NCBI GenBank assembly: GCA_964461255.1
Contig: CAYWTR010000015.1
Coordinates: forward strand, 6,983-70,982
From: an uncultured Fibrobacteraceae bacterium
Lineage (GTDB): Bacteria > Krumholzibacteriota > Krumholzibacteriia > LZORAL124-64-63
DNA: 64,000 nucleotides
Direction of reading: 5' to 3'
The position numbers and the translations under genes are program-made. Position 1 is the stretch's first letter. Every line of letters begins with the position of its first letter. The notes beneath the pieces were generated by a model that saw only the letters and a list, made by a program, of their open reading frames with translations, was not told the DNA's origin and made no database searches. Of the stretch, positions 44,671-62,315 are shown in pieces.

Positions 44671-45834
44671 GTGAAGTGCCTCGGTTGTTGGCCCGGCGTC
44701 CTGCGAAACGCCGCGCCGCGCCCGCGCCGCGCCATGACCCGGGCCGCGCCGGCGTTCCTGATTCTGGTCCTGGCGTCAGGCGCGACCGCCGCCCGGCTCG
44801 GCGACGCCGGCATCGACCCGGGCTCGCTGGAGCGCTTCGCCCGGCTGGCGCTCGATTGCGTGGAACGCGAGTACCCCAGCAAGATCGCCCACGTCATGCA
44901 GAGCGACGCCGACGTGGCGCCGCCGCGCGAGCTCACGCCCGTCTTCTACGGTTGCTTCGACTGGCATTCCGCCGTGCACGGCCACTGGCTGCTGGCCCGC
45001 CTGGCGCGGCTGCATCCCGGCGCGCCGCTGGCGGCTGAGGCGCGCGCCGCGTTGGCACGCAGCCTCGCGCCCGACCGCATCGCGCGCGAACTCGCTTATC
45101 TGCGGGGCGAGGGACGGACCACGTTCGAGAGGCCCTACGGGCTGGCCTGGCTGCTGCAGCTGGCCGCCGAGCTGCGCGAATGGGATGACCCGCAGGCGCG
45201 GCGCTGGGCCGGCGCCCTGGCGCCGTTGGAGCGCGAGGCCGCGGCGCGCTTCGCATCGTGGCTGCCGCGGCTGCGCTACCCGATCCGCGGCGGCGAGCAC
45301 GATCAGACCGCGTTCGCGCTGGGACTGGTTCTGGACTGGGCGCGCACGGCGGGGGACGACACGCTGGCGGCGCTGGTCGCGCGCAAGGCGCTGGCCTTCC
45401 ACGCCGGCGACCGCGGCGCGAATCTGGCCTTCGAACCCTCAGGCCAGGATTTCCTTTCCCCCATCCTGGGCGAAGCCGACCTGATGCGGCGGGTGCTGCC
45501 GCCCGGCGAGTTCGCGGTCTGGCTGCGCGCGTTCCTGCCCGCCCTGCCGGAAGGGGAGGACGCCTCGTGGCTGCCAGTCGCCGAGGTGACCGACCGCGCC
45601 GACGGCAAACTGGCGCATCTGGACGGCCTGAACCTGAGCCGGGCCTGGATGCTCGACGGCATCGCGGCCGGCCTGCCGCCAGGCGACGCGCGCCTGCCCG
45701 CGCTGCGCGCCGCCGCCGCCGCCCACCGCCGGGCCGGTCTGCAAGCCGTGACCGGCGAGCACTATGAAGGGGGACACTGGCTGGGCAGCTTCGCCGTCTA
45801 CCTGACGACCGGCCGCGGGCTGCCCTCGCCATAA
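44671..45834 (+). CDS. DUF2891-like protein (conserved GCFDWHSAVHGHW motif), probably secreted
   Basis: GTG start 4 nt after GGAAAGGAG, in frame with MTRAAPAF. Hydrophobic N-terminus. This is the only credible part of a 1591-aa antisense ORF. Confidence 0.45.
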   Translation: MKCLGCWPGVLRNAAPRPRRAMTRAAPAFLILVLASGATAARLGDAGIDPGSLERFARLALDCVEREYPSKIAHVMQSDADVAPPRELTPVFYGCFDWHSAVHGHWLLARLARLHPGAPLAAEARAALARSLAPDRIARELAYLRGEGRTTFERPYGLAWLLQLAAELREWDDPQARRWAGALAPLEREAAARFASWLPRLRYPIRGGEHDQTAFALGLVLDWARTAGDDTLAALVARKALAFHAGDRGANLAFEPSGQDFLSPILGEADLMRRVLPPGEFAVWLRAFLPALPEGEDASWLPVAEVTDRADGKLAHLDGLNLSRAWMLDGIAAGLPPGDARLPALRAAAAAHRRAGLQAVTGEHYEGGHWLGSFAVYLTTGRGLPSP

Positions 45835-45863
45835 GGACCGGAGCCGGAACGCGGGCGCGCCCC

Positions 45864-49054
<3,191 letters not shown>

Positions 49055-49058
<4 letters not shown>

Positions 49059-50209
49059 CGCGAGTCGCCGCCCGCCGGCTCGCCGCCTGCCGCCGTCCCT
49101 TCCGGCGGCCCGCCGCCGGCAGGCCCGCCGTCGGTGACGCGCACGAGCGCGCCCGGCCGCAGGTTCAGGTGGCCGGACCTGACCACCCGCGCGCCCGCGT
49201 CGAGGCCGCCGGTGATCTCTATCCAACCCTCGGCCGTCATGCCGGTCGCTACGGCTCGCCGGCTGACGGTATCGGCGTCGACCACGTAGACGAACGGGCC
49301 GGCGTCGCCGACGCCGACGGCCGACACCGGGACGGCCAGAGCGCCGCGGCGGCTGTCCAGCGTGAATTCGACGCGAGCCAGGAAACCGGGGCGCGGCTCG
49401 ACGCCCGCCGGCGCGGGATCCAGAGCCACCTCCACCGGCACCAGGCGGCTGGTGGGGTCGGCGCTGGGGAAGATCCGCCGTATCCGCCCCGTCAGCCTGG
49501 CGTCGGGATAGGCGTCGAGCCGGACGCCCACCTGCCGCCCGGACCCGAGCTGCACCACGTCGAGCTCCGAAACCTGCACGCGCACGACCAGCAGGGCGTC
49601 CTCGGCGATCTCGAACAGGGGAGCGTTGACCGCGACCGCCGCGCCCCGCTCGGCCCGTTTGGCCGTGACCACCCCCGACGCGGGGGCCGTGATGCGGCTG
49701 AACGCCACGCGCGTGCGCCACAGCTCCGCGTCGGCCCGGGCGATCCCGAAGGCGCTGCGCAGCAGATCGAGCTCAGATTCCGAAACCAGATCCTCGGCTT
49801 GCAGCCGCTCGGCGCGCTGGAACGCGGCCGCAGCGTTGGCGAGCGCCGCCTCGGCGCGCGCCAGCTGGGCCAGGGCCTCGCGCGCGTCCAGCTCGGCCAG
49901 GAGCTGGCCGGCGCGCACCCTGCTGCCCTCCTCGACCAGCACGCTCTCCAGCGTGCCCGCCAGCTGGGCGCTGACCGGCACGGCGCGGATCGGCTCGAGC
50001 GGGCCGGTCACCGTCACCGTCCGGACCAGATCGCGCGGCCGCGCCGCCACGGCGGCGACGGGGACCGCCTGACCCGCGCGGCCGCGCGAGCCTGCGCCTG
50101 CGCCGGCGCCGGCCGCCGCGCCGCCGTCCCGCGAGCAGCCGGCGGCAAGAGCGATCGCCAGCAGCCATCCTGTCCAACCAGCGTGCGCCAGCGCGCGCCT
50201 CATCCGCAT
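49055..50209 (-). CDS. RND efflux membrane fusion protein (periplasmic adaptor), lipoprotein
   Basis: Lipobox LAIALAAGCS. Coiled-coil hairpin and beta-barrel segments typical of the HlyD/AcrA family. Confidence 0.75.
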
Positions 50210-50353
50210 CGATCTTCTCCCGCTCGCGGCCGCGGGCCCCTCCCGGCAGCATGATCTGTATGATAGCGCCGCGGCGCCCGAAGGCGAAAAGCAAAACAGA
50301 GAAAAGGCCGCCTCCCCTCAGGGGAGGCGGCCGGGAGAGTGGTCAAGCCACGG

Positions 50354-51352
50354 TTAGCGGTACATGGACTTGGTGCTGCCCCAGCTGTTGACCTCGGTCG
50401 GCACCGGCGCGTTGACGATCATGTGGTAGGTGCCGCAGACGTCAAGGCCGTAGGCGTCGACGATCAGGTACAGCGTGACCGGCCCCTCGCCCTCGTTGGT
50501 CCAGGAGACGGTCTCGGTGGCACCGCCGCAGCAATTATCCGAGCCGTCCACGCAGGTGCCCGGAATGTCCGCGCAGTCGGTCACCAGGTAGAGCGACATG
50601 TCGACCGTGCCGCTCTGCGAGGCGGAGAAGGTCTCGCCCGGCCCGATCGTGATCTTGTAGACCACGTCCTTGCCCGCCGCCGGGTAGCCGGTGCAGCTCG
50701 GCGTGCCCGGCGTGTAGGTGTTGTTGGCTTCGCAGGTGTTGACATCCCACTCGACCAGCCCTTGCTCCTGCAGATCGATGGCGCCGTCGCAGGTGTCGTT
50801 GACCGGCGGCGGCGGGGGCGGTTCGCCCTCGGTGATCGTCAGGTTGAAGGACGGGATGCACGTGGGCGAGGGCCAGGTGTCCACCATGATGTAGTAGCTG
50901 CCCGGCTCGAGCGTCAGGCCCAGGATCTCGCGCGGCAGTCCGGACGATCCGGTGCGGATGGCGATGCAGCTCGCATCCAGCGGACACGCATCGTCGATGG
51001 CGATGCCGGTCCACGTCGTGCCCAGCGGGTCCATGACGATGTCGACGATCGTCGTCGTGGTGATGTCCAGCCGGTAGATGATGTCCTCGCCGCCGTCATA
51101 GTAGCCGAGGCAGGTGTCGAAGTAGTTGTTGCCCCGCCCGCAGGTCGTCTGGCCCAGGTCGCTGAACGGCAGGCTGCTGATGACGATCGGGCTCGTGCAG
51201 TCGTCCCCTTCCGCCCGCGAGCCTTCGGCGGCCGGCGGCACGATGACCGTCGGGCCATGCTTGGCATCAGGCTTTTCGGCGTAGGCGGCCGCGGCCAGCC
51301 CCAGGACGAGCAGCGGAAGCAGCGGGGTGACGAGCATTCTGGCTGTCTTCAT
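50354..51352 (-). CDS. Secreted tandem PPC-like (pre-peptidase C-terminal-type) domain protein ending in SWGSTKSMYR
   Basis: Signal peptide MKTARMLVTPLLPLLVLGLAAAAYA. Two repeats with the DxxYxxxI ... GxYYIxVD pattern. Confidence 0.5.
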   Translation of the reverse strand: MKTARMLVTPLLPLLVLGLAAAAYAEKPDAKHGPTVIVPPAAEGSRAEGDDCTSPIVISSLPFSDLGQTTCGRGNNYFDTCLGYYDGGEDIIYRLDITTTTIVDIVMDPLGTTWTGIAIDDACPLDASCIAIRTGSSGLPREILGLTLEPGSYYIMVDTWPSPTCIPSFNLTITEGEPPPPPPVNDTCDGAIDLQEQGLVEWDVNTCEANNTYTPGTPSCTGYPAAGKDVVYKITIGPGETFSASQSGTVDMSLYLVTDCADIPGTCVDGSDNCCGGATETVSWTNEGEGPVTLYLIVDAYGLDVCGTYHMIVNAPVPTEVNSWGSTKSMYR

Positions 51353-51690
51353 GGTGCGTTCCCTTCTCTGCGGTGATGGTGCGATGCTGCCCTGCGAATC
51401 GCCCGCCAGGCGATCCCGGCAAGCCAGCGCGGTAGCGATGCTCACTATGGCTGGGTCCGACCTCCTTACTCCACGCATTGTCATCGTGGAGACAAGAACA
51501 ACGAAGGCGCGCAACGACGGCCGCGGCCGCGCTGTCGCACGTATCCAGGCGGGGAACTCAATCATAGCACATGCCGCTGCGAGATTCGCCCCCAAAGCGC
51601 ACGGCCGGTCCGATATCCCATGGACCCGCTAGGGGCGTTGCCGCGACCGGCCGTCCCCTTCCTCTTCCGGCAGCCGGTGGCCGCGGCAAG

Positions 51691-51728
51691 GCACGGCCCC
51701 CTCTGCGCCGTGGCAGAGGGGGCCGTTG
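51691..51728 (-). terminator. Strong GC hairpin (14-bp perfect stem ACGGCCCCCTCTGC/GCAGAGGGGGCCGT, 6-nt loop) just downstream of the 51756 gene end
   Basis: Inverted repeat read directly. There is no U-tract, which is common in high-GC genomes. Confidence 0.4.
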
Positions 51729-51755
51729 CGCTCGTCGAGCTGTCCGATTCCGCTC

Positions 51756-52727
51756 CTACCGGAACGTGCTCTTGACCTGGCCCCAGCTCGAAGGCGTCCC
51801 CGAAACCGGCGCGTCGATGGTGACCAGGGAGGTCCCGCAGCCGCCGGCCGCGTAGCCGTCGATGACCAGGTAGTACACGCCGTCCGCCTCCGCCACGTAG
51901 GTGAACGTCTCGGGGTCGTCCCCGCCCGCCACGCACGAGTTCATGTCGGAGCAGTCGGTCAGCAGATAGATCGCCGCGTCGTAGTTCTCGCCCGTCAGCG
52001 TCACGGCGATGGTCTGCCCGGCGTTGAGGTAGATGCTCCAGACCGCGTCATCGCCGTTGGCCTGGCTGTAGCCGGTGCAGCCGTTGGTCGGGCTGTAGTT
52101 GTTACCACCGCCGCAGGTGTTGACCTGGAATTCCTGCAGGCTCTGATCCTGCAGATCGATCGCGGTCGCGCAGGTGGGATTCGGGTAGGGCACTCCCGCG
52201 GTGATGGTCAGGTTGAAGGCCGGAATGCAGGCGGGCGCCGGCCAGGTGTCGACCATGATGTAGTAGCTGCCCGGAGCGAGCTCCAGGCCCAGGATCTGCC
52301 GCGGCGCGGAGGACGAACCCGTGCGCACGGCGAGGCAGCCGGAGAGCGCCAGCGGGCATTCATCGTCGATCGCGAGGCCGGTCCAGGTCGTGCCCAGCGG
52401 ATCCATGACGATGTCGACGGCCGTCGGCGCGGCGATGTCCAGGCGATAGATGATGTCCTCGCCGCCGTCATAGGAGCCCAGGCAGGTATCGAAGTAATTG
52501 TTGCCCCGCCCGCAGGTGGTCTGGCCCAGATCGCTGAAAGGCAAGCTGTTGATGATGATCGGATTCGTGCAATCGTCCCCGACTGCCCGCGAACCCTCCT
52601 CGGCCGGCGTGACGATGACCGTCGGGCCGTGGTCGGCTTCGGGCTTCTCGGCGGCGTACGCGGCCGCGGCCAGTCCCAAGACGAGCAACGGAAGCAGCGG
52701 CACGATGGATATTCTGGCTGTCCTCAT
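51756..52727 (-). CDS. Secreted tandem PPC-like domain protein ending in SWGQVKSTFR (tandem paralog of 50354-51352)
   Basis: Signal peptide MRTARISIVPLLPLLVLGLAAAAYA. About 75% identity to the downstream paralog in the first domain. The duplication includes the 5-prime leader. Confidence 0.5.
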   Translation of the reverse strand: MRTARISIVPLLPLLVLGLAAAAYAAEKPEADHGPTVIVTPAEEGSRAVGDDCTNPIIINSLPFSDLGQTTCGRGNNYFDTCLGSYDGGEDIIYRLDIAAPTAVDIVMDPLGTTWTGLAIDDECPLALSGCLAVRTGSSSAPRQILGLELAPGSYYIMVDTWPAPACIPAFNLTITAGVPYPNPTCATAIDLQDQSLQEFQVNTCGGGNNYSPTNGCTGYSQANGDDAVWSIYLNAGQTIAVTLTGENYDAAIYLLTDCSDMNSCVAGGDDPETFTYVAEADGVYYLVIDGYAAGGCGTSLVTIDAPVSGTPSSWGQVKSTFR

Positions 52728-53004
52728 GGCGTTGTCCCCTTTTCTGCGATGATGTCATGCCGGGCGCCCGGCGCGCAGCGCCGGACTCTCGCTTCAACGC
52801 AATGCACTGGCACGCAATACCAATACTGCCTGGTCTCGGGCGACCTCCTTCCGTGCGGTACGTCCGCGCTGCACGAACAAAGAACACGCTGGGCGGCGAC
52901 CCCCTCGGTTCGCCGCCGCGTTCGCTTCAGACGGTGATGGGGAAGATTGTACCACACCGGCGGCGAAAAGTCGCGCCTGAACGCAGGCGTCGGCATCCGG
53001 CCGG

Positions 53005-55911
53005 TCAATGGTCCCGCACGGCCGCGACCTGACTGCTGGTGGGGCGTCCGGCCGCGATAAACCCGCACCAATTGGCAGGATGCGCGTCCCTGCCGGCCGC
53101 GCGGCGCGCGACGAGGCTGGCCAGGGAAGCCCTCCTGGCGGCGGACGCGGTGTCCAGGCCTTCCTCCAGCAGCGTTCTGTAGAAGGCCGTCATCCACGCC
53201 AGCGCGCAGTCGTCCGGGACCGGCCACAGGCTCATGACGACCGCTGCCGCCCCCGCGATCTGGAAGGAGCGTCGCAACCCCAGGACCCCTTCTCCACCGG
53301 TCGCCACCCCCAGGCCGCTCTCGCACGCCGACAACACCACCAGGTCCACCCCGGTCAGATCCAGCGACACCACCTCCTCGGCCGTCAGAAGCCCGTCGTC
53401 CGGAGTCCCGTCTGTCGCGGCGGGTGCCGCATAGGCCGGCAGGCCACGATTGGCTCCCGCCAGCGCCAGCCCGCACATCGCCAGCGGGTTGTCCGGGACC
53501 GGCGCTTCGCGGGCGGAGAGCAGGGCGGTCTCCAGCCCGGCGGCGGCGGCGCAAGCCTCATCCCAGAAGAAGCCGTGCGTCGCCAGATGCAGAACGGTCT
53601 TGTCCGGCGCCGCCCCCGCGAACGCGGTCTCGGTGGCCTCGGATCCCAGGAGCAGGGTCGCCGTCCCGCGTGCGCCCGGAACCGTGGACCACATGCGGGC
53701 GATGACCGACGCCTCCTGTCCGCTTCCCGGCAACGGCGAGAAGGGTGAGCCGATCACGCCGTCGCAGGGGCCTCGCCGTCTGTCCTCCCGCGCAGAATCG
53801 GGAACCGGTCCATCGGCAAGCGGCTGGGCGTCGTAATCCGGCTCTCCCAGGACGAGCAGGCCGCCGGCGCCAGGCCTGCCGTCGCCGGGGCGGCCGCCAT
53901 CGCCGCGGCGGGCCGCGCCGTCTCCCGCCATCAGTTCTCGCTCCCCTGTCAAGTAGGTCAGCGGCGGCGCCGTTTCGATCAGATAGCGCATCGGCGATCC
54001 GCGGGCCGGCAGCGCCTCGAAGCCGACCAGGCCCAGGGCACCATCGGGCACCACGAAGACATGGCGCGCGCCCTCCAGACCTGCGGCCAGCGGATCCCAG
54101 ATCCTCGCCCGCAGCGCCTCGCCCGCCCGGCGGCTTCTCGACTCCCGACGCGCGGACTCGCCCAGCCGAGCGGGAGGTCGATAGAGCTCGCGGCGCCAGT
54201 TCGCGACCAGCGTGTCGATCTGCGCGGCCGCGCCCAGGACGAGCAGCGTCATATCCTTCCCGGCGTGTCGACCCAGGAGAAACGCGGCATAGGCCGGCTC
54301 GGACCCGCCATCCTCGCCTTGCCGCCAGAACCGCACATAGGACAGCAGCGCTGCACCGGCGGGCAGCGCCTCCGCCGGCCGCGCGGGGGGCGGCGCGCTC
54401 TCGCCCTCCTCCACCCGCTCGGCCAGCGACCTTTCCAGCGCGTCGCGCTTGCGGCGCAGCGAGACCAGCCTCGCCTGGTAGTCCTCCAGCGACCGGGCGC
54501 CCGACCCGCCGAGGATCGATTCCGCCAGCTCCTTCCGGCAGGCGGCCAGGCGATTGATCAGCTCGCCCTCGCGCCCTAGCCCGCGCACGCGCCGCTGGCG
54601 CGCGGCCATCTCTTCCAGCACGATCGCGCGAGAGATGCGCAGCGCGTCCCAGGCAGCGGCGGCGTCCCGGGGGCGGCCGGTTGCGGCCGCGATGGTCAAG
54701 GCCACGTCCAGGCCCGCCGGGCGCACGGCGCCATAGCGCAGCGCCTCGCGCTGGGACAGTCCGCGCGCCATCGCGCGCAGGTGGCGGCAGCCGATCTGCT
54801 CGACCCGCAGGGCGGTCGCCAACGCGCCGGCGCTGTCGCCCGCCGCCAGTTGGGCGCGCGCCTGGGCGTGCAGGGCCGCGGCCAGCTCCGGATGCCCCGG
54901 CCCGTGCACCCATTCCCGCAATCGAACGGCCTGGAGGCAATGCGCGACCGCAGCCCGCGCGTCGCCCCGCCGCAGCGCCGTCTCGGCCAAGGTCAGCAGC
55001 GGAATGGCCAGTTCCCAGTGCTGCTCGCCCTGAGCCGCCCGCCAGGTCGACAGCGAGGCCTGCCCGGCGGCTTCCGCGTCCTCCGTGCGACCAAGCTCCA
55101 GCAGGCAGCGCGCCACGCTGCTGTGCGACGCTGCGACCTCACGGTGAATCTCGCCCAGCGCCGCCCGACGCTTGTCGCGCGCCGCCTCCAGCAGCGGCAG
55201 CGCCCCGCGCGCGTCTCCGCGCGCCAGCGCGAGGTTGGCCAGGTTGTCCAGCGTGGCGATCGTCTCCGGATGCTTCGCCCCGAGCTGACGCTCGCGGATG
55301 GACAAGGCTCTGGCGTACGAGAGGCGCGCCTCTTCGAAATCACCCAGCTCGTGCAGCAACATGCCGATCTTGTTGGCGGTCTTGCCGACCTCGTGATGCC
55401 CGGCGCCCAGCGCCCGTTCCTGCAGCGCGAGCTTGCGCGCGAAGAGCCGCCGCGCGGCGGTCAGATCCCCGCGGTCCTGCAGCACCGAGGCCAGCTCATC
55501 CAGGGCACGCCCGGTGTCCAGGTGGTCGCCCCCCAGCTCGCGTTCGATGATGGCCAACGACCGCAGCGCCAGCGCCTCCGTTTCCGGTTCGGCCGAGCGT
55601 CCCCGGAGCCGCAGAACCGCGATCATGTGCATCTGCGCAGAGGCGGCGGCGAGCGATCCCTCCCCCTGCTCGCGCTGGGCGCGGGCCAGAACCTCCCAGC
55701 CGGCGGCCTCCGCCTCCTCCAGACGTCCCTGGACCTGCAGCGAGAGCATCCGCTCCAGGCCCGGCAGCAGCGGCAGAGAGGTCGGAACGGGTGCGATGTC
55801 GGCCGCGCGCGTTGCGGCCGCGGCCAGGACGATGAGCAGCGCGGCCGGCAGCAGGATCGCCGCGCCCGGCCTTCGGCATGCCACTGGCGCGGCCCGATCG
55901 CGTCTTGGCAT
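53005..55911 (-). CDS. Exported TPR-repeat plus CHAT-domain protein (caspase-like His/Cys dyad)
   Basis: N-terminal signal/TM (MPRRDRAAPVACRRPGAAILLPAALLIVLAAAATRA). More than 8 TPR units. C-terminal CHAT domain with LHLATHGFF and LVVLSACESG. Confidence 0.7.
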   Translation of the reverse strand: MPRRDRAAPVACRRPGAAILLPAALLIVLAAAATRAADIAPVPTSLPLLPGLERMLSLQVQGRLEEAEAAGWEVLARAQREQGEGSLAAASAQMHMIAVLRLRGRSAEPETEALALRSLAIIERELGGDHLDTGRALDELASVLQDRGDLTAARRLFARKLALQERALGAGHHEVGKTANKIGMLLHELGDFEEARLSYARALSIRERQLGAKHPETIATLDNLANLALARGDARGALPLLEAARDKRRAALGEIHREVAASHSSVARCLLELGRTEDAEAAGQASLSTWRAAQGEQHWELAIPLLTLAETALRRGDARAAVAHCLQAVRLREWVHGPGHPELAAALHAQARAQLAAGDSAGALATALRVEQIGCRHLRAMARGLSQREALRYGAVRPAGLDVALTIAAATGRPRDAAAAWDALRISRAIVLEEMAARQRRVRGLGREGELINRLAACRKELAESILGGSGARSLEDYQARLVSLRRKRDALERSLAERVEEGESAPPPARPAEALPAGAALLSYVRFWRQGEDGGSEPAYAAFLLGRHAGKDMTLLVLGAAAQIDTLVANWRRELYRPPARLGESARRESRSRRAGEALRARIWDPLAAGLEGARHVFVVPDGALGLVGFEALPARGSPMRYLIETAPPLTYLTGERELMAGDGAARRGDGGRPGDGRPGAGGLLVLGEPDYDAQPLADGPVPDSAREDRRRGPCDGVIGSPFSPLPGSGQEASVIARMWSTVPGARGTATLLLGSEATETAFAGAAPDKTVLHLATHGFFWDEACAAAAGLETALLSAREAPVPDNPLAMCGLALAGANRGLPAYAAPAATDGTPDDGLLTAEEVVSLDLTGVDLVVLSACESGLGVATGGEGVLGLRRSFQIAGAAAVVMSLWPVPDDCALAWMTAFYRTLLEEGLDTASAARRASLASLVARRAAGRDAHPANWCGFIAAGRPTSSQVAAVRDH

Positions 55912-56180
55912 CACAGATTGTGATACCAAGGTGAGAACCGCCCGCGACCTGCCTGCATCCCCGGCGGTCACGCCCGCGCCAACGCCGCGGCCGGCGACAA
56001 CCAGGGGCAGCGGCAAGCCAGCAGGGATATCGCGCCATGGCCGCAGCGAGAGGGGCCGCGCGGCCGCGCGCGCGCGCCGGCGAGGCCGCTCGCGCGGGCG
56101 CCGACGGCGCCGTCCGCCCCCGCGACCAGATGGCCGCGGGGGCGGCGACAACCGGCCGGCCTCGCGCCCGCCGGGAGATG

Positions 56181-58148
56181 TCAACGGACCAGCATGATCT
56201 TCTTGGCGTCCAGCTTGCCGTCCGCTTCGAGCTGAGCCAAATAGGCGCCCGAGGCGACGGGGCGGCCGGTCTGATCCAGGCCGTTCCAGTCGACCGCGTG
56301 CTCGCCTGCCGTGAACGCGCCTTCCGCCAGCGTCGCGATCAGCCGCCCGGAAAGGTCGCGCACGACCAGCTGCGCATCTTGCGGGCGGGCCACCGTGAAC
56401 ACGATCCGCGTCTGCGGGTTGAAAGGATTCGGGTGCGCTCCCACCACGCGCGTCAGCAGCGCGGGAGCCGGCACCTCGGCCGTCTGGCTGCTCAGCAGGG
56501 TCCAATCCCCGCCGGCGGCCTGCAGATAGAGCGCGTAGGTGACGGTGGCGCCCGGTTCGGCCTGCGCATCCACCGCCTGGAAGCTGCCCGCGCCGACCTG
56601 CTGGTAAGGCACTTCCCAGCTCGCATCGCCTTGGCTGGCCAACAGCCGGAACACCGGCGCGGCCGCTTCGTCGCCCACGCGCCACGTGATGACGACGCCG
56701 TTCGCGTTGGGCGCTAGGTGGAAGACCGCCAGGTAGTTCGACACCGCGGTGGGGACGATCAGGACGAAGGCCCCCTCGACGACCACGCGCTGCGGATCCT
56801 CGAGTTCGGCCAGATCGCCGTCGCTCAGACCCGCCTGCTCCCGCGCCGCGAGGCTCGCCGGCGGCGCCTGCGGCTCGCGCACGAACGCCGCTCCCGAGGG
56901 GATGTCGACGTTGGCCGTGAAGTAGACGCGCGTGTAGGCGTCGCCGCCGCGATCGCCCAGGGCCAGCGACGCGATGCCGGTGATGTCGGTGATGACGGCG
57001 CCGGCGTCCGGCACCAGGTCGCCGTCGATGTCGACCTCCTGCCCGACCTTGAGCAGGGGCTGGTCGTTGACGAAGAGCGTCTTGGCGGTGCCCGTCGCGG
57101 TCACGACCGGCCAGACGTAGGCGATGTCGCCGTCGGCGTTCATGTAGGCCATGGTGATCCCGCCGGTGACGACGGCGCCGCCGATGTCCATCCCCTCGCG
57201 GTACAGGATCACACCGTCCTTGCAGATGAACTCGTCGATGGCCGTGGACGCGCTGGTGTCGCCGGTGAACATGTAGCTGCCCGATTCCGTGATGCCGGTG
57301 TAGTCGAAGTTCTGCCAGTTCTCGCCCGGCAGGCCGCCGATGGCCTCAGGCACCGGCCGGCCCTCGCCGACGATCGAACCTCCGGCGAAGATGCCCGCTC
57401 CGTCGATCACGATGTAGTTGTTCAGCGAGCTTGTTTCGGTGGTCTCGACCTTGCCTATGTAGTGCGTCCCCAGCGGTGAGAATCGATAGTCGAAGGCGAT
57501 GGTATTGGCGGTCGAAAGCGGCGCCGGGATGTTCGGCAGCGTCATGCCCCCGATCAGCAGCGGCGTGGCGCTGTAACCGTAGAACAGGCCGCGGTTGGAG
57601 GTCGAGCCGGTCTGCGTCGTGCGCACGCCGCCGACGAAGTACGGAATGCCGTCCGCGGTGATGCCGGGCCGGCTGCCGAACGACCACCACAGGCCCGGCG
57701 CGTGCGGATAGACCTCCTGCTCGTTCATGATGGAGACGTCGTTGACCCAGACGCCGTCGAGGCTGGTGGCGCCGCTGTCAAGGTTGGTGGAGAGAGGGCT
57801 GTACGCGGTCAGACCGGCGTCGCTGAAGCCGTAGAACGACTCCCAGGAAGCCTGCGCGTACGACCCGTACGTTCCCTCGGTCCAGAGCACGGCGCCCGGC
57901 CCGCCCGTGGGGCTGCCCCACGAGCGGCTCAGCGTGACGATGCCATCCGAGGTGTCGACCCGGAACGCGTAGCCGCCGGCATGGTTGGCGGCGCCGCCGT
58001 GGATGGAGCTGACGTTGTGGCCGGGCGGCGCGCCGGGCAGCTGATCGCCGTCCTTGAACATCAAGGTCGCGATCTGCCCCTGGCACGGCACGGATGAGGC
58101 GGCGACCAGCAAGGCCGCCGCGGCGAAGAGCATGAACCTCCCGCGCAT
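56181..58148 (-). CDS. Secreted protein of unknown function with T9SS-type C-terminal sorting domain
   Basis: Signal peptide MRGRFMLFAAAALLVAASSVPCQGQ with an AAGGGGG RBS. C-terminus HPNPFNPQTRIVFTV...GAYLAQL...KKIMLVR. Confidence 0.55.
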   Translation of the reverse strand: MRGRFMLFAAAALLVAASSVPCQGQIATLMFKDGDQLPGAPPGHNVSSIHGGAANHAGGYAFRVDTSDGIVTLSRSWGSPTGGPGAVLWTEGTYGSYAQASWESFYGFSDAGLTAYSPLSTNLDSGATSLDGVWVNDVSIMNEQEVYPHAPGLWWSFGSRPGITADGIPYFVGGVRTTQTGSTSNRGLFYGYSATPLLIGGMTLPNIPAPLSTANTIAFDYRFSPLGTHYIGKVETTETSSLNNYIVIDGAGIFAGGSIVGEGRPVPEAIGGLPGENWQNFDYTGITESGSYMFTGDTSASTAIDEFICKDGVILYREGMDIGGAVVTGGITMAYMNADGDIAYVWPVVTATGTAKTLFVNDQPLLKVGQEVDIDGDLVPDAGAVITDITGIASLALGDRGGDAYTRVYFTANVDIPSGAAFVREPQAPPASLAAREQAGLSDGDLAELEDPQRVVVEGAFVLIVPTAVSNYLAVFHLAPNANGVVITWRVGDEAAAPVFRLLASQGDASWEVPYQQVGAGSFQAVDAQAEPGATVTYALYLQAAGGDWTLLSSQTAEVPAPALLTRVVGAHPNPFNPQTRIVFTVARPQDAQLVVRDLSGRLIATLAEGAFTAGEHAVDWNGLDQTGRPVASGAYLAQLEADGKLDAKKIMLVR

Positions 58149-58330
58149 CACGATCCCCCTTTGGTTGTGGCGTGGCGATGTGGTGGGACGTCCAGCCCCG
58201 CAGCAGACGGTGAGCGCCGCCAAGGGCCGGATCCCGGGCATTATAGCACCTCCGTCGGCGGGATTGTAGAGGGATGGCCTGGGGACGGAGGGATCCTGCG
58301 GTGCCGGGGCAGCCCAGGCGTCGGCGCAGC

Positions 58331-59776
58331 TTATCCCCCGCCGAACACCCATGCGGCGAGCAGCATGACCGCCGCGTTGATCAGCAGCAGCATCAATAGG
58401 TTGAGCCACACTCCCGCCGTCGCCATTTGCGGTATCGTCAGGCGGCCGGCGCCGAAGACGATGGCGTTGGGCGGGGTTGCCACCGGCATCATGAAGGCGC
58501 AGCTGGCGGCCAGGGCGACGGGCACGGCCAGCAACACCGGGTCGACGCCCATCGCGACGGCGACGGCCCCCATGATGGGCAGGAAGACGGCCGCGGTGGC
58601 CGTGTTGCTGGTCAGCTCGGTGAGCAGCAGCACCACGGCCGTGGCCGCGGCGGTGGCGCCCAGCAAGGGCAACGCGCTCAGCGCCGTCAATGAGCCCGCG
58701 ATCCAGTCGGCCAGCCCCGAGGCGCTGATGGCCTGCGCCAGCGACAGGCCGCCGCCGAACAGAATCAGCACCGACCACGGCACTTCTTCGGCCTCCGCCC
58801 AGCGCAGCGCCGGCCGCAGGCCGCCGCGCTCGATTGGAATCAGAAACATCAGCAGGGCGCCGGCGATGGCGATGCCTGCGTCGCTCAACCCCGGCAGCGC
58901 CCGCTCCAGCAGCGGCCGCGCGATCCAGCACGCCGCGGTCAAGCCCGTGATGGCGCCGACGGTCCACTCCGCCCGCGAGGCGGGTCCCAGCGCCGCCGCC
59001 GCCCCCTGCAGCGCCTCGCGGCCGCCGGCGATCTCGCCTTCCGGCAGGGGATGCAGCCGGCGCACCAGAATCAGCCACGCCAGCGGCAGCGCGGCCGCGA
59101 CCAACGGCACGCCGACCAGCATCCATTGCGCGAAGCCGATCTCGCGTCCGTAGGTCTCGGACATGAAACCGGCCAGCAGGGCGTTGGGCGGGGTGCCGAT
59201 CAGCGTGCCCAGGCCGCCGATGTTCGCCGCGTACGCCAGGCCAAGCAACAACGCCGGCGCCAGGCGCCGGGCGATCTGCGGCTCCTGTCTTTCCGTCAGC
59301 TCGATGACCGACAGGGCCAGCGGATACATCATCACGACCGTGGCCGTGTTGCTCACCCACATGCTGATCAACGCCGTGGCGACCATCACCCCGCCGACGA
59401 TGCTGGCCGGCCGCGCCCCCACCAGCTTCAGAACAGCGAGCGCCGCCCGCCGGTGCAGTCCGCACGCGGCCAGCGCCCGGGCGATGAGGAATCCGCCCAG
59501 GAACAGGAAGATGATGGGGTTCGCGTACGGCGCCGCGCTGGCCGCGATCGGCTGGACGCCCAGCAGGGGGAAGAGCACCAGCGGCAGCAACGCCGTCGCC
59601 GGGATGGGGATGGCCTCGGTGACCCACCAGACAGCCATCAGCGCGCCTACGGCCGCCGCGCGCGCGGCGGCGGGCGCCATGCCTTGCGCCGGCGGCAGCA
59701 GCAGCAATGCGCAGAACAGCACCGGCCCGAGCGCCAGCCCGACGCGCCTGCGCATACCTGAGCCGCCGCTGGCCAT
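58331..59776 (-). CDS. DASS/SLC13-family divalent anion:Na+ symporter (citrate/sulfate/dicarboxylate type)
   Basis: SNTAT signature (LTSNTATAAVFLPI) and its symmetric counterpart (VSNTATVVMMYP). Multi-TM protein. Start is MASGGSG (59776) or MRRRV (59755). Confidence 0.75.
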   Translation of the reverse strand: MASGGSGMRRRVGLALGPVLFCALLLLPPAQGMAPAAARAAAVGALMAVWWVTEAIPIPATALLPLVLFPLLGVQPIAASAAPYANPIIFLFLGGFLIARALAACGLHRRAALAVLKLVGARPASIVGGVMVATALISMWVSNTATVVMMYPLALSVIELTERQEPQIARRLAPALLLGLAYAANIGGLGTLIGTPPNALLAGFMSETYGREIGFAQWMLVGVPLVAAALPLAWLILVRRLHPLPEGEIAGGREALQGAAAALGPASRAEWTVGAITGLTAACWIARPLLERALPGLSDAGIAIAGALLMFLIPIERGGLRPALRWAEAEEVPWSVLILFGGGLSLAQAISASGLADWIAGSLTALSALPLLGATAAATAVVLLLTELTSNTATAAVFLPIMGAVAVAMGVDPVLLAVPVALAASCAFMMPVATPPNAIVFGAGRLTIPQMATAGVWLNLLMLLLINAAVMLLAAWVFGGG

Positions 59777-59976
59777 GAACCGTGAAACCTCCGCGGCGCG
59801 ACGGTCGATTGTCCTGGCCCCGATCAGCTCCAGCCGATCATCGACGGCGCATCGGCGCGGCCGCCAGATTGCCATTGACGCGCCCGCCTGCCGATGGCCT
59901 GCTGGCGGCGGGGACGCAGACCCAGATCCCCCCTCCCCTATTGGGCCCGGGACATCGTGTACGAGAGGAGAGCGCA

Positions 59977-60669
59977 ATGTCGACAACGAAAAAGGCCGTG
60001 GCGGAATTCATCGGCACGTTCTGGCTTGTGCTCGGCGGTTGCGGAACGGCGGTGCTGGCCGGCGATCACGTCGGCTGGCTCGGCGTTTCCCTGGCCTTCG
60101 GCCTGACCGTGGTGACGATGGCCTACGCCATCGGCCACATCTCGGGCTGCCATCTGAATCCCGCGGTCTCGATCGGCCTGGTCGCCGGTGGTCGCATGCC
60201 GGCAAAGGATCTGCCCGCCTACATCATCGCGCAGGTTCTGGGAGGGATTGCGGCCGCACTGGTGCTCATGATCATGCTGCAGGGCGCGGAGCTGTGGGAC
60301 GCCGCGCGGCAGGCGGGATTCGCCGCCAACGGCTACGCGGAGCACTCGCCGAAGGGATTCGGGCTGGGAGCGGCCTTGCTGGCCGAGCTGGTGCTGACCT
60401 TCATCTTCCTGATCGTGATCCACGGGGCCACGGACCAGCGCGCCCCCGCCGGCTTGGCCGGCCTGGCGATCGGTCTGACCCTGGCCCTGATCCACCTGAT
60501 CTCGATCCCGGTCACGAACACCTCGGTCAACCCCGCGCGCTCGACCAGCCAGGCGCTGTTCGTGGGCGGGTGGGCGATGTCGCAGCTGTGGTTGTTCTGG
60601 ATCGCCCCGATCGCCGGCGCCGTTCTCGGCGGCTTGGTGTACAAGGCGCTGGGCAGGAAGCCTGCCTAG
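59977..60669 (+). CDS. aqpZ: Aquaporin Z (MIP family water channel)
   Basis: Two NPA boxes (HLNPAVS, SVNPARS). Ar/R context typical of AqpZ. GAGGAG RBS before the ATG. Confidence 0.9.
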
Positions 60670-60792
60670 GTTGCGCGGTCAAACAAGCAGCCGCCGCAAC
60701 GTCGCCCGGCCGGCGATCGCTGCGGCGGCTTCCTCATCTCAGGCCGCCGATTTCGGCGGTGTTGCGTCTCGCGACCCTCGCGCGAGGTCCGC

Positions 60793-62082
60793 TCAGTCTA
60801 GCTTGTTCAGCTCGGTGCGGCGGTTCTGCGCGCGCCCCGCGTCGGTATCGTTGGGCGCGATCGGCTTGTCGGGGCCGTAGCCTTTGGCAATGAGCTGCCC
60901 CGCGGGCACGCCCTTGCCCACCAGGAAGTCGCGCACAGCGTCGGCGCGCTCCTGCGACAGCTTGAGGTTCATAGCGCGCCGACCGGTGCTGTCGGTGTGG
61001 CCCGCCACCTCGATCTTGAGTTCCGGATACGCCAGCAGGCTGACGGCCACCCGGTCGAGCACCTCGCGCGACTCCTCCGTCAATTCCGCCTTGCCCACCG
61101 CGAAGTTGACCCCTTCGAGAATCAGGGTCGTCTTCTCCTCCTCGAAGAGCTGCGGGCAGCCCTGCTTGTCGACCTTGGTGCCCGCCGGCGTGCCGGGGCA
61201 CTTGTCCAGGTGGTCGGGCACACCGTCGCCGTCGCTGTCGAGCGGGCAACCGTGCGCATCGACCTTCACGCCCGCCGGCGTGCCGGGGCACTTGTCCAGG
61301 TGGTCGGGCACGCCGTCGCCGTCGCTGTCGAGCGGGCAACCGTGCGCATCGACCTTCACGCCCGCCGGCGTGCCGGGGCACTTGTCCAGGTGGTCGGGCA
61401 CGCCGTCGCCGTCGCTGTCGAGCGGGCAGCCGCGCGCGTCGACGCTCACGCCCGCGGGCGTGTCGGGGCACTCGTCCAGATGGTCGAACACGCCGTCGCC
61501 GTCGCTGTCGAAGTAGCGCGGTCCCGCTCCCAGCATGTAGCTGATTCCAAACTGGACGCCGTAGTCCAGGTGGTTGTCCTTCTCCACGAAGTCGGTGTCC
61601 GCGTACCAGTCGACCGTGCCTTCGAGACGGAACGAGATCTTCTCGTTGGGCCGGTAGCGCAAGCCCAGCAGCGCGCCCGCGCCGTCGCCCGAAGCGTCGG
61701 CGTCGCCGCCGTACTGGGTGTGCGTGTAGCCGGCGCCCAGGAGCAGCCGCGTCTGCTCACCGTAAGGCAGACTGAAGAGCAAGCGGGCATGGATCGGCAG
61801 GACGTTGACCTTCTGCTCGCTGCCGTTGACGGGACGCCCGTCCGTGCGCGTCAGCGAGATGTCTCCCTCCAGGGATACATTGCGCGTGAAGAAATACCCC
61901 ACGCGCGCGCCCGCTCCGGCCCAGTCGTCCAGCCCCAGCGGAGGATCGAAGACCGAGATGCGACCGAACGCGCCAATCTCCAGGACACCGCTATCCTGGG
62001 CCGAAACGGGGAACGACGTCATGGCCACCGCTGCCGCCATGACCACACAGCTGCGCCAGGACCACATCTTGAGCCTGCTCAT
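60793..62082 (-). CDS. OmpA-family outer membrane protein with four thrombospondin type-3 (TSP3) calcium-binding repeats
   Basis: N-terminal beta-rich domain. DSDGDGVPDHLDKCPGTPAG x3 plus a variant. C-terminal OmpA domain (EVAGHTDSTGRRAMNLKLSQERADAV). Confidence 0.8.
   Translation of the reverse strand: MSRLKMWSWRSCVVMAAAVAMTSFPVSAQDSGVLEIGAFGRISVFDPPLGLDDWAGAGARVGYFFTRNVSLEGDISLTRTDGRPVNGSEQKVNVLPIHARLLFSLPYGEQTRLLLGAGYTHTQYGGDADASGDGAGALLGLRYRPNEKISFRLEGTVDWYADTDFVEKDNHLDYGVQFGISYMLGAGPRYFDSDGDGVFDHLDECPDTPAGVSVDARGCPLDSDGDGVPDHLDKCPGTPAGVKVDAHGCPLDSDGDGVPDHLDKCPGTPAGVKVDAHGCPLDSDGDGVPDHLDKCPGTPAGTKVDKQGCPQLFEEEKTTLILEGVNFAVGKAELTEESREVLDRVAVSLLAYPELKIEVAGHTDSTGRRAMNLKLSQERADAVRDFLVGKGVPAGQLIAKGYGPDKPIAPNDTDAGRAQNRRTELNKLD
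61171..61530. repeat. 90-bp tandem DNA repeat, 3 near-identical units plus 1 degenerate, encoding the TSP3 repeats
   Basis: cttgtccaggtggtcgggcac recurs with an exact 90-nt period (61201, 61291, 61381). Units differ by a single nucleotide. Confidence 0.7.
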
Positions 62083-62281: not shown

Positions 62282-62315
62282 AGAGGCCCCCGCGATCCGC
62301 GCCGCGGGGGCCTCT
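62282..62315 (-). terminator. Intrinsic-terminator-like hairpin (13-bp perfect stem AGAGGCCCCCGCG/CGCGGGGGCCTCT, 8-nt loop) after the 62357 gene end
   Basis: Inverted repeat read directly. On the minus strand it is followed by a moderately U-rich CUUGCCGUU. Confidence 0.45.

What the first reader, a model, noticed from the sequence alone, without database searches (positions are those of the whole stretch)
53005..55924. Exported TPR-CHAT protein with a palindrome (ATCACAGATTGTGAT) overlapping its start codon
CHAT caspase-like proteases are usually cytoplasmic, in stand-alone or defence-associated contexts. This one has an N-terminal signal/TM segment followed by at least 8 TPRs, suggesting a periplasmic or surface protease-scaffold. 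The 6-3-6 palindrome at the translation start suggests tight regulation. It sits next to the duplicated PPC-domain proteins.
Basis: partly seen in the sequence, partly recalled or inferred. Interest (0 to 1): 0.5.

Follow-up and report, generated by a model that had tools for sequence, protein, structure and literature searches.

The report
Exported TPR-CHAT protease with start-codon hairpin
This is an intact caspase-like (TPR-CHAT) protease gene that carries an export signal, one ordinary member of a very large and almost unstudied family of mostly exported bacterial TPR-CHAT proteins; its only unusual feature is a strong AT-rich hairpin that buries its start codon.

Summary

Export is the family norm, not an exception: 73-82% of CHAT-bearing relatives have such an N-terminus, against 8% of TPR-only hits. 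The family is very large, with 7,225 clusters at E<=1e-30.

The palindrome is real and longer than reported. It is a 12-3-12 inverted repeat (55904-55930, RNA dG -17.4 kcal/mol) with the ATG inside its 3' arm. It is the only AT-rich stem among six 12-bp stems in the window. The gene also lacks the Shine-Dalgarno motif that most of the neighbouring genes examined have. Function and conservation of the hairpin could not be tested.

Linkage to the PPC paralogues is not conserved outside near-identical strains.

In about 7 Acidobacteriota loci, relatives follow an ECF sigma/anti-sigma pair, a "split DdvA" arrangement. This hints at envelope signalling but is absent here.

Verdict: new member of a known, poorly characterised kind; moderate-to-low interest.

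The parts
53005..55911 (-). TPR-CHAT protein coding sequence (968 aa plus stop)
   Evidence: ORF and translation. The identical 968-aa protein is called in public assemblies. GC3 frame signal. Pfam CHAT and TPR matches.
55804..55911 (-). Predicted Sec-type signal peptide (residues 1-36, putative cleavage TRA|AD)
   Evidence: n-h-c organisation read from the sequence. Hydrophobicity maximum 3.04 at residues 19-28. pLDDT below 50 for residues 1-45. The same feature is present in 73-82% of relatives. Cleavage itself is inferred, not shown.
54679..55767 (-). TPR superhelix (residues 49-411; 18 helices, about 9 pairs, 42-residue period)
   Evidence: Pfam TPR_12 (5 stretches) and TPR_10. AlphaFold secondary structure. 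Kinesin-light-chain-type TPR matches.
54130..54678 (-). Helical and beta linker region between TPR and CHAT (residues 412-594)
   Evidence: AlphaFold model: three long helices (414-500), then strands at 520-561. This region is co-conserved with CHAT in all of the top 150 representatives.
53047..54129 (-). CHAT caspase-like protease domain (residues 595-955)
53575..53577 (-). Catalytic His779 codon (HLATHG motif)
   Evidence: Invariant in 33 and in 63 aligned homologues. Coordinates verified.
53323..53325 (-). Catalytic Cys863 codon (LSAC motif)
   Evidence: Invariant in 33 and in 63 aligned homologues. Coordinates verified.
55904..55930 (-).
   Evidence: Folding gives dG -17.4 kcal/mol, z=-7.1 against shuffles. 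It is the only AT-rich stem (44% GC) among six stems of at least 12 bp in the window. It is identical in strains 99.6% and 95.9% identical to the window, which is uninformative.
55917..55928 (-). TGGTATCACAAT, a possible extended -10 promoter element inside the 5' arm of the hairpin
   Evidence: The pattern TGGTA-N0-4-CAAT occurs only twice in the window. The other copy is TGGTACAAT, upstream of PPC paralogue 1. The pattern was chosen post hoc. CACAAT ends 6 nt before the A of the ATG. Inference only.
55882..55884 (-). Alternative GTG start (residue 10), used by the gene caller in strain L083
   Evidence: A 959-aa product is called in L083 although the DNA there is identical. This start still retains the signal peptide.
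56114..56145 (-). GC-rich terminator-like hairpin after the upstream FlgD_ig/T9SS-tailed gene
   Evidence: 12-bp stem, 87% GC, beginning 36 nt after the stop codon, whose last base is 56181. It suggests that the CHAT gene has its own transcription start.

Best explanation
The gene encodes a Sec-exported TPR-CHAT cysteine protease of the separase / Csx29 / DdvA structural class. It is most likely periplasmic, either soluble or tethered to the inner membrane.

How it probably works:
- An N-terminal signal peptide takes the protein across the inner membrane. This is inferred from the sequence and from the family-wide pattern.
- The ~9-repeat TPR superhelix binds a protein ligand or substrate. By analogy with solved relatives, the His779-Cys863 caspase-like site stays in a resting state until ligand binding activates it.
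- The most likely role is regulated, substrate-specific proteolysis in the cell envelope. It may act as a site-1-type protease in transmembrane signalling, as proposed for DdvA and as the ECF sigma / anti-sigma / TPR-CHAT gene triads in Acidobacteriota suggest. This step is inference.

Expression appears to be controlled at initiation. The ATG has no Shine-Dalgarno sequence and lies inside a 12-bp hairpin. That hairpin either sequesters the start codon in a leadered mRNA, or acts as a DNA operator over the -10/+1 of a leaderless mRNA.

The adjacency to the PPC-domain paralogues is incidental.
For: Identity and fold:
- CHAT and TPR domains. The dyad is invariant.
- High-confidence model: pLDDT 86.7, pTM 0.90.

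Export:
- n-h-c N-terminus.
- 73-78 of 95 CHAT-bearing relatives have it, against 2 of 24 TPR-only hits and 3-9 of 95 internal control segments. Among full-length representatives, 93 of 127 have it.
- The I19N variant in strain L085 shortens the hydrophobic core to about 15 residues, which fits a signal peptide better than a membrane anchor.
- The organism is a diderm: OmpA, an RND pump and T9SS-tailed proteins are in the window. The CHAT protein has no C-terminal sorting domain.
- Precedent: DdvA has a periplasmic TPR-CHAT, proposed to act as its own site-1 protease (PMC11506125).

Link to sigma signalling:
- Seven Acidobacteriota loci have the order ECF sigma -> anti-sigma -> exported TPR-CHAT, with 8-212 nt gaps before the CHAT gene (under 65 nt in six of the seven).

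Start region:
- Hairpin.
- No SD at the CHAT start, whereas most of the neighbouring genes examined have GGAGG-like motifs.
- The starts of the PPC and FlgD_ig genes are unstructured (85th-99th percentile), whereas the CHAT start is at the 20th.

Selection:
- 35 synonymous against 37 non-synonymous codon differences from a 96%-identical strain, roughly dN/dS 0.35.
Against: - No dedicated signal-peptide predictor was available. Cleavage versus an uncleaved signal anchor is unresolved.
- No substrate, partner, ECF sigma or anti-sigma gene lies near the gene in this window.
- The sigma-linked relatives are only about 30% identical to this protein and make up about 10% of the loci sampled.
- The nearest non-strain homologue is only 38-40% identical, so neither the hairpin nor the gene order could be tested for conservation.
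- Judged by total folding energy against this 70%-GC genome, the start region is not extreme (z=-0.8).
- Start regions of 57 family members show no comparable hairpins, so it is not a family trait.
- The consensus scan found no sigma-70 promoter.
Confidence: 0.55

Rival explanations
1. The hydrophobic segment is an uncleaved signal anchor (N-in, C-out). The TPR-CHAT is then tethered to the inner membrane facing the periplasm, like DdvA without its cytoplasmic anti-sigma domain.
For: - The uncharged stretch is 17 residues long in the window strain and is modelled as a helix at residues 21-37.
- DdvA is membrane-tethered.
- The basic n-region obeys the positive-inside rule.
Against: - Strain L085 has Asn at position 19, leaving about 15 hydrophobic residues, which is short for a membrane helix.
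- A TRA|AD site follows the core here, and many relatives have classic AxA|Q/E sites.
Confidence: 0.2
2. The protein is secreted beyond the outer membrane or displayed on the cell surface as an extracellular protease, in the manner of gingipains.
For: - The organism makes heavy use of T9SS-type cargo tails: five genes in the window carry one.
Against: - The CHAT protein has no T9SS/FlgD_ig C-terminal domain, and its chain ends right after the CHAT domain.
- No other secretion signal or dedicated secretion gene lies adjacent.
Confidence: 0.08
3. The palindrome or hairpin at the start has no regulatory function. It is a chance inverted repeat, or a by-product of an AT-rich promoter/-10 region.
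For: - 6-3-6 palindromes are common: 68 in the window.
- About 1 stem of 12 bp per strand per 64 kb is expected by chance.
- Total MFE is unremarkable against the genome background.
- There is no second copy of the motif in the window and no Rfam match.
- It is not seen in 57 family members.
- Its conservation in strains is uninformative, because they are 96-99.6% identical overall.
Against: - It is the only AT-rich long stem in the window and lies exactly over the start codon.
- The single imperfect position is a G.U wobble at the G of the ATG.
- The gene lacks an SD, unlike most of the neighbouring genes examined.
- By my own rough estimate, the chance that one of about 2 chance stems covers any of about 50 gene starts is around 0.05.
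Confidence: 0.3
4. The gene is functionally coupled to the neighbouring PPC-domain paralogues, for example as its substrates or as a protease and pro-domain-like partner set.
For: - Same strand, adjacent, and all have signal peptides.
- The gene order is retained in three related strains.
Against: - Those strains are 96-99.6% identical to the window, so shared gene order is trivial.
- Among 80 related CHAT loci, only one has a weak PPC-like match, about 8 kb away.
- PPC homologues at 57-68% identity in three other lineages have no CHAT neighbour within 8 kb.
- GC-rich terminator-like hairpins follow each PPC gene. A weaker terminator-like hairpin and a -10-like TGGTACAAT, both read by eye, lie between the CHAT stop and PPC1.
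Confidence: 0.05

Closest known systems
DdvA of Myxococcus xanthus (transmembrane anti-sigma factor with a periplasmic TPR-CHAT; PDB 8ROT/8RW5; PMC11506125)
   Same: - The TPR-CHAT module is placed outside the cytoplasm, with a His-Cys dyad and a separase/craspase-type architecture.
   Different: - The window protein has only 16 residues before the hydrophobic segment: there is no zinc-binding anti-sigma domain.
- No ECF sigma gene lies nearby.
- The hydrophobic segment looks cleavable rather than a membrane helix.
- DdvA-like fusions are reported only in Myxococcota and one Comamonas species, whereas this free-standing family spans many phyla.
- Whether the three-helix active-site motif that DdvA lacks is present here was not tested.
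Csx29 / Craspase TPR-CHAT of type III-E CRISPR-Cas
   Same: - The order TPR then CHAT is the same.
- In both Csx29 systems and a subset of this family, the protease is encoded next to an ECF-type sigma factor. The sigma factors in the Acidobacteriota triads even give weak hits to the type III-E RpoE-like model.
   Different: - Csx29 is cytoplasmic and works bound to Cas7-11 and crRNA.
- Here there is a signal peptide, no CRISPR array or cas gene in 64 kb and no PADLOC hit.
- Sequence identity in the structural alignment is only about 12%.
Separase (eukaryotic C50 peptidase)
   Different: Separase is a eukaryotic, nuclear/cytoplasmic enzyme regulated by securin and Cdk1. Identity is 9-14%, and it has no export signal.
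Database family 'CHAT domain-containing protein / tetratricopeptide repeat protein' (uncharacterised; Acidobacteriota, Eisenbacteria, Latescibacterota, Myxococcota, cyanobacteria and others)
   Same: - Same full-length architecture: signal peptide, TPR_12 repeats, linker, CHAT.
- Identity is 30-40% over 85-94% of the length.
- There are 7,225 clusters at E<=1e-30 to the C-terminal half.
   Different: Nothing essential differs. This copy is somewhat shorter (968 aa against about 1050-1190 aa) and has the lineage-specific hairpin at its start.

Membership tests
CHAT domain (Pfam PF12770), caspase-like clan CD peptidases | Profile match above the curated threshold | tested here: met
   194 bits against a cut-off of 24; E=4.9e-57; residues 595-955 cover profile positions 2-288 of 289.
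CHAT domain (Pfam PF12770), caspase-like clan CD peptidases | Catalytic His (H-G) and Cys (S-A-C) dyad | tested here: met
   H779 and C863 are invariant in alignments A1 (33 sequences) and A2 (63 sequences).
CHAT domain (Pfam PF12770), caspase-like clan CD peptidases | Caspase/separase-type fold preceded by a helical repeat scaffold | tested here: met
   [not shown]
CHAT domain (Pfam PF12770), caspase-like clan CD peptidases | Peptidase activity | not testable with these tools
   Needs biochemistry.
Sec (SPase I) signal peptide / exported protein | Basic n-region, hydrophobic h-region of about 10-17 residues, small residues at -3/-1 | tested here: met
   Five Arg in residues 1-16; core AAILLPAALLIVLAAAA (KD 3.04); TRA|AD site. 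This rests on a heuristic only; no SignalP-type predictor was available.
Sec (SPase I) signal peptide / exported protein | Actual cleavage and periplasmic location | not testable with these tools
   Supported indirectly by the family-wide presence of the feature and by the DdvA precedent.
Lipoprotein / Tat substrate | Lipobox Cys at +1, or an S/T-R-R-x-F-L-K motif | tested here: not met
   By inspection, Cys12 precedes the h-region and has no lipobox. The RR at residues 13-14 is followed by P-G-A, and relatives lack a twin arginine.
DdvA-type transmembrane anti-sigma factor | N-terminal cytoplasmic (zinc) anti-sigma domain | tested here: not met
   Only 16 residues precede the hydrophobic segment, and Pfam finds no zf-HC2 or other N-terminal domain.
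DdvA-type transmembrane anti-sigma factor | Cognate ECF sigma gene adjacent | tested here: not met
   HMMs built from the sigma and anti-sigma proteins linked to relatives find nothing among the window's ORFs, and tblastn gives only E>=0.016.
DdvA-type transmembrane anti-sigma factor | TPR-CHAT module on the periplasmic side | tested here: inconclusive
   [not shown]
Type III-E Craspase protease Csx29 | Encoded next to Cas7-11/gRAMP, a CRISPR array and Csx30/Csx31/RpoE | tested here: not met
   No CRISPR-like repeats in 64 kb, no PADLOC hits, and unrelated neighbours.
T9SS cargo | C-terminal type A sorting domain (TIGR04183 / FlgD_ig-like) | tested here: not met
   None is found in the CHAT protein. 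It is present in the upstream neighbour (26 bits against a cut-off of 23) and in four other window genes.
Known cis-regulatory RNA (Rfam) | Match to a curated covariance model | tested here: not met
   No hit at gathering threshold in the window, and none at E<=1 in 55750-56250.

The most novel reading that the evidence does not exclude
Free-standing, Sec-exported TPR-CHAT proteases could form a very large, unrecognised class of ligand-gated periplasmic proteases. They would trigger envelope signalling by cleaving anti-sigma factors or other transmembrane sensors, in effect a 'split DdvA'. In this reading, TPR-CHAT plus anti-sigma plus ECF sigma is a recurring module found in three forms: cytoplasmic (Craspase), fused (DdvA) and operonic (the Acidobacteriota triads). 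The copy in this window would be an orphan member, kept silent by a start-codon-sequestering hairpin or operator until a specific cue arrives.
Probability: 0.2. Interest if true: 0.6.

Novelty: new member of a known kind. Interest (0 to 1): 0.33.

Why it matters
Caspase-like TPR-CHAT proteases have become prominent through separase, CRISPR Craspase and, in 2024, the periplasmic anti-sigma factor DdvA. That paper calls DdvA the only characterised case of a periplasmic TPR-CHAT, and reports DdvA-like fusions only in Myxococcota and one Comamonas species.

The results here show that stand-alone TPR-CHAT proteins with signal peptides are not rare. They number thousands of sequence clusters across many phyla, and most carry an export signal. 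A subset sits directly behind ECF sigma / anti-sigma pairs. If these are active periplasmic proteases, they would be a large and untouched group of envelope signalling or quality-control enzymes.

For this particular gene the practical value is modest. It is an orphan member with no informative partner. The start-codon hairpin combined with a missing Shine-Dalgarno sequence is a small, testable regulatory curiosity.

Tried and rejected
- Conserved linkage with the PPC proteins. From the CHAT side, tblastn of the neighbours against 82 loci found one weak case. From the PPC side, three contexts showed none. Rejected.
- Conservation or covariation of the hairpin. The only orthologues are strains 99.6% and 95.9% identical, and the hairpin is identical in all of them. 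The upstream intergenic region is 98.5% identical, against 90-92% for two other intergenic regions. However, SNP density is mosaic along the whole locus, so this is not usable as evidence.
- Hairpin as a family trait. Start regions of 57 relatives are mostly unstructured and often have SD motifs. Rejected.
- Regulon search. No second copy of the 15-mer exists in the window, even allowing up to 3 mismatches.
- Consensus promoter and terminator scan of 52600-56300: nothing found.
- Rfam: nothing found.
- Defence-system context. PADLOC gave no hit, and there is no CRISPR array.
- ECF sigma or anti-sigma genes in the window: none.
- Sequence-only PDB search. The full-length profile is swamped by TPR proteins, and the C-terminal half alone finds nothing. 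Only fold comparison links the protein to Csx29, separase and DdvA.
- Profile of the sigma-like neighbours against the PDB: no hit. NCBIfam did identify them as ECF-type, below the curated cut-offs.
- Literature. Searches for exported, periplasmic or secreted CHAT proteins returned essentially only the DdvA paper.
Full report
**What is at the coordinates**

The window is 69.8% GC. The feature is a minus-strand gene. The stop-to-stop frame runs from 53005 to 56685, but the coding signal in third-codon-position GC only begins near 55700-55900. The first ATG, at 55911-55909, gives a 968-aa product. The identical 968-aa protein is called in public assemblies (contigs).

**Domains, dyad and fold**

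- Pfam gives CHAT (PF12770) at residues 595-955, E=4.9e-57. It also gives TPR_12 in five stretches, plus TPR_10.
- His779 (HLATHG) and Cys863 (LSAC) are invariant in alignments of 33 and 63 homologues. Codon coordinates were verified.
- An AlphaFold model built on the 63-sequence alignment is confident: pLDDT 86.7, pTM 0.90.
  - Residues 1-45 are low confidence.
  - Residues 49-411 form 18 helices, about nine TPR pairs with a 42-residue period.
  - A helical/beta linker follows, then the CHAT domain.
- Foldseek against the PDB ranks Csx29, DdvA and human separase first, at E about 1e-13.

The protein is therefore a separase/craspase-type TPR-CHAT with an intact active site.

**Export signal**

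The N-terminus reads MPRRDRAAPVACRRPGAAILLPAALLIVLAAAATRA|ADIAP. It has a basic n-region, a hydrophobic core (Kyte-Doolittle 3.04 over 10 residues) and small residues at -3/-1. No dedicated signal-peptide predictor was available, so I tested the feature across the family instead.

- Among the hits of the first protein search, 73-78 of 95 CHAT-bearing relatives have a strongly hydrophobic window in their first 60 residues. Only 2 of 24 TPR-only hits (kinase and NB-ARC fusions) do, and only 3-9 of 95 internal control segments.
- Many relatives show classic AxA|Q/E cleavage sites.
- In an independent, more diverse sample (the best 150 representatives found with only the C-terminal 557 residues as query), 93 of 127 full-length proteins have the same feature.
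- All plausible starts keep the hydrophobic segment: ATG 55911; GTG 55884, which another gene caller used in strain L083; and in-frame GTG/TTG codons just upstream.
- The next Met is residue 54, inside the first confidently modelled TPR helix.
- Strain L085 carries I19N. This leaves about 15 hydrophobic residues, which fits a cleavable signal peptide better than a membrane anchor.

The organism is a diderm that uses T9SS-type C-terminal sorting domains. The upstream neighbour reaches the TIGR04183 threshold, and four other genes in the window have the same tail. The CHAT protein has no such tail. A periplasmic location is therefore more likely than surface display.

**The family**

- With the linker+CHAT half as query, 83,628 clusters (50% identity) match at E<=1e-3, 47,480 at E<=1e-10 and 7,225 at E<=1e-30. 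The best 150 all align over nearly the whole query.
- A genome scan hit its 600-match limit. Hits came from Eisenbacteria (best, 40% identity), Acidobacteriota, Latescibacterota, Myxococcota, cyanobacteria, Ignavibacteria, Planctomycetes and others.
- JGI annotates these proteins as [quoted passage not shown].

Export is the norm.

The literature, however, is thin. Searches returned essentially one relevant paper, on DdvA of Myxococcus xanthus. That paper describes a periplasmic TPR-CHAT fused to a cytoplasmic anti-sigma domain. It calls DdvA the only characterised example, proposes CHAT-mediated autoproteolysis as a site-1 cleavage, and finds DdvA-like fusions only in Myxococcota and one Comamonas species.

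**The palindrome**

The 15-mer is present at 55910-55924. A perfect 6-3-6 palindrome is not remarkable in itself: there are 68 in the window against about 41 in simulations, although AT-rich ones are rare at 0.33 expected.

The 15-mer turned out to be the core of a 12-3-12 inverted repeat, CTTGGTATCACA-ATC-TGTGATGCCAAG, at 55930-55904.

- As RNA it folds with dG -17.4 kcal/mol, z=-7.1 against shuffles of itself.
- The ATG lies inside the 3' arm.
- The single non-Watson-Crick position is a G.U wobble at the G of the ATG.
- Only six places in the window have stems of at least 12 bp with at most one G.U. The other five are at least 83% GC. Three of them sit just downstream of minus-strand stop codons: after the FlgD_ig gene, after PPC1 and after PPC2. 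They look like terminators.
- The CHAT start has no Shine-Dalgarno motif, whereas most of the neighbouring genes examined have GGAGG-like motifs.
- The start regions of the PPC and FlgD_ig genes are unstructured, whereas that of CHAT is not.

Caveats apply.

- Against the GC-rich genome background, the total folding energy of the start region is only at the 20th percentile.
- No second copy of the motif exists in the window, and Rfam has no match.
- Fifty-seven family members show no comparable start hairpins.
- The only orthologues are near-identical strains, so covariation cannot be assessed.

There are two mechanistic readings.

- An RNA hairpin that sequesters the start codon of a leadered transcript.
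- A DNA operator overlapping the promoter of a leaderless transcript. The 5' arm contains TGGTATCACAAT, whose CACAAT ends 6 nt before the A of the ATG. The only other TGGTA-N0-4-CAAT in the window is TGGTACAAT, upstream of PPC1. That pattern was chosen post hoc.

**Neighbourhood**

The order on the minus strand is:
1. SLC13-type transporter.
2. A 655/686-aa exported protein with a T9SS tail.
3. TPR-CHAT.
4. Two PPC-type paralogues (60% aa identity).
5. RND adaptor and pump.

Three related strains keep this order, but they are 95.9-99.65% identical to the window.

- Among 80 related CHAT loci, only L044 has a weak PPC-like match, about 8 kb away.
- PPC homologues are well conserved (up to 77% identity) in Krumholzibacteria, Latescibacteria, Eisenbacteria and Zixibacteria. 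They have no CHAT neighbour in the three contexts examined.

The adjacency is best regarded as incidental.

**A functional clue from relatives**

I clustered the flanking ORFs of 82 loci. Seven Acidobacteriota loci (L019, L025, L027, L030, L052, L056, L061) share the order: a ~200-aa protein, then a ~300-aa protein, then the TPR-CHAT gene.

- All are on the same strand, with 8-212 nt gaps before the CHAT gene (under 65 nt in six of the seven).
- All seven ~200-aa proteins match ECF sigma models: TIGR02989 (best E=7e-14) and TIGR02937. They also weakly match the type III-E CRISPR RpoE-like sigma model. All these scores are below the curated cut-offs.
- The ~300-aa proteins have an anti-sigma-like N-terminus (zf-HC2, borderline score), one membrane helix and a small C-terminal domain.
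- L028 and L075 have partial versions of the arrangement.
- The CHAT proteins in these triads also have hydrophobic N-termini.

This looks like DdvA split into separate genes. It echoes the Csx29-Csx30/31-RpoE logic of Craspase. No such genes are present in this window.

Five other loci have a clostripain-family (C11) peptidase gene immediately upstream of the TPR-CHAT gene.

**Verdict**

The protein is exported and probably periplasmic, but that is the family norm. The PPC association is not supported, and regulation by the palindrome is plausible but untested.
- The gene is a new member of a known, very large and experimentally almost untouched kind.
- The best mechanistic model is a ligand-gated periplasmic TPR-CHAT protease with unusual control at initiation. 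Substrate and signal are unknown.

Noticed in passing
L019:7649-12800, L025:7828-12700, L027:300-5400, L030:1275-6400, L052:7756-12400, L056:7808-12600, L061:7703-12600 (Acidobacteriota loci): Conserved three-gene arrangement: an ECF-type sigma factor, then a single-pass anti-sigma-like protein (zf-HC2-like N-terminus), then an exported TPR-CHAT. This resembles DdvA/DdvS split into separate genes. The sigma factors also weakly match the type III-E CRISPR RpoE-like model.
   Followed up: partly
L006, L010, L012, L013, L064 (gene immediately upstream of the TPR-CHAT gene): A clostripain-family (Peptidase_C11) gene sits directly upstream of the TPR-CHAT gene in five loci. L010 and L013 also have a Ser/Thr kinase nearby, and the L010 kinase scanned here carries DUF4384. 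That makes two clan CD proteases side by side.
   Followed up: partly
window 56114-56145, 51694-51725, 50306-50332, 62283-62314: Very GC-rich (83-88%) 12-bp hairpins without T-tracts. The first three lie shortly downstream of minus-strand stop codons and look like this organism's terminators. The consensus terminator scan, which covered only the first of them, did not detect it.
   Followed up: partly
window 51756-52727 and 50354-51352 (minus strand): The two PPC-type paralogues belong to a well-conserved ~320-aa exported family (up to 77% identity) in Krumholzibacteria, Latescibacteria, Eisenbacteria and Zixibacteria. Each appears to hold two Cys-rich beta domains, and both end in a similar C-terminal motif (SSWGQVKSTFR and NSWGSTKSMYR). 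Their function is unknown.
   Followed up: partly
window 61152-61511: Four tandem 90-nt repeats (82-100% identical) inside the OmpA-family gene 60793-62082. They encode thrombospondin type 3 (calcium-binding) repeats. Strain L085 aligns to the repeat copies in more than one register.
   Followed up: no
window 56181-58241 (minus strand): The upstream exported protein (655 or 686 aa, depending on the start) has a T9SS type A sorting tail, but no recognisable family for its ~560-residue N-terminal part. The ATG at 58241 is preceded by GGAGG and by a TACAAT -10-like hexamer at 58263-58268.
   Followed up: no
window 45601-61240 compared with L085: Divergence between strains is strongly mosaic, from 0 to 41 differences per 200 nt. 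Hot spots lie at 59801-60000, 59401-59600, 57401-57600 and in the CHAT-PPC1 intergenic region (52801-53000). Cold stretches lie at 57001-57200 and 60401-60600. This suggests recombination between strains.
   Followed up: partly
window residues 502-511 and 552-557 of the CHAT protein (about 54240-54407): Non-synonymous differences between strains cluster in two surface loops of the linker region (E502R, G503V, S505D, P508T, R511P; K552Q, D553E, T555A, L557V). The first cluster lies where the model's confidence dips. The TPR region is nearly invariant.
   Followed up: no
window 16408-16528: A GC-rich low-complexity region of overlapping direct repeats (period 9-18 nt) lies inside a coding region.
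   Followed up: no
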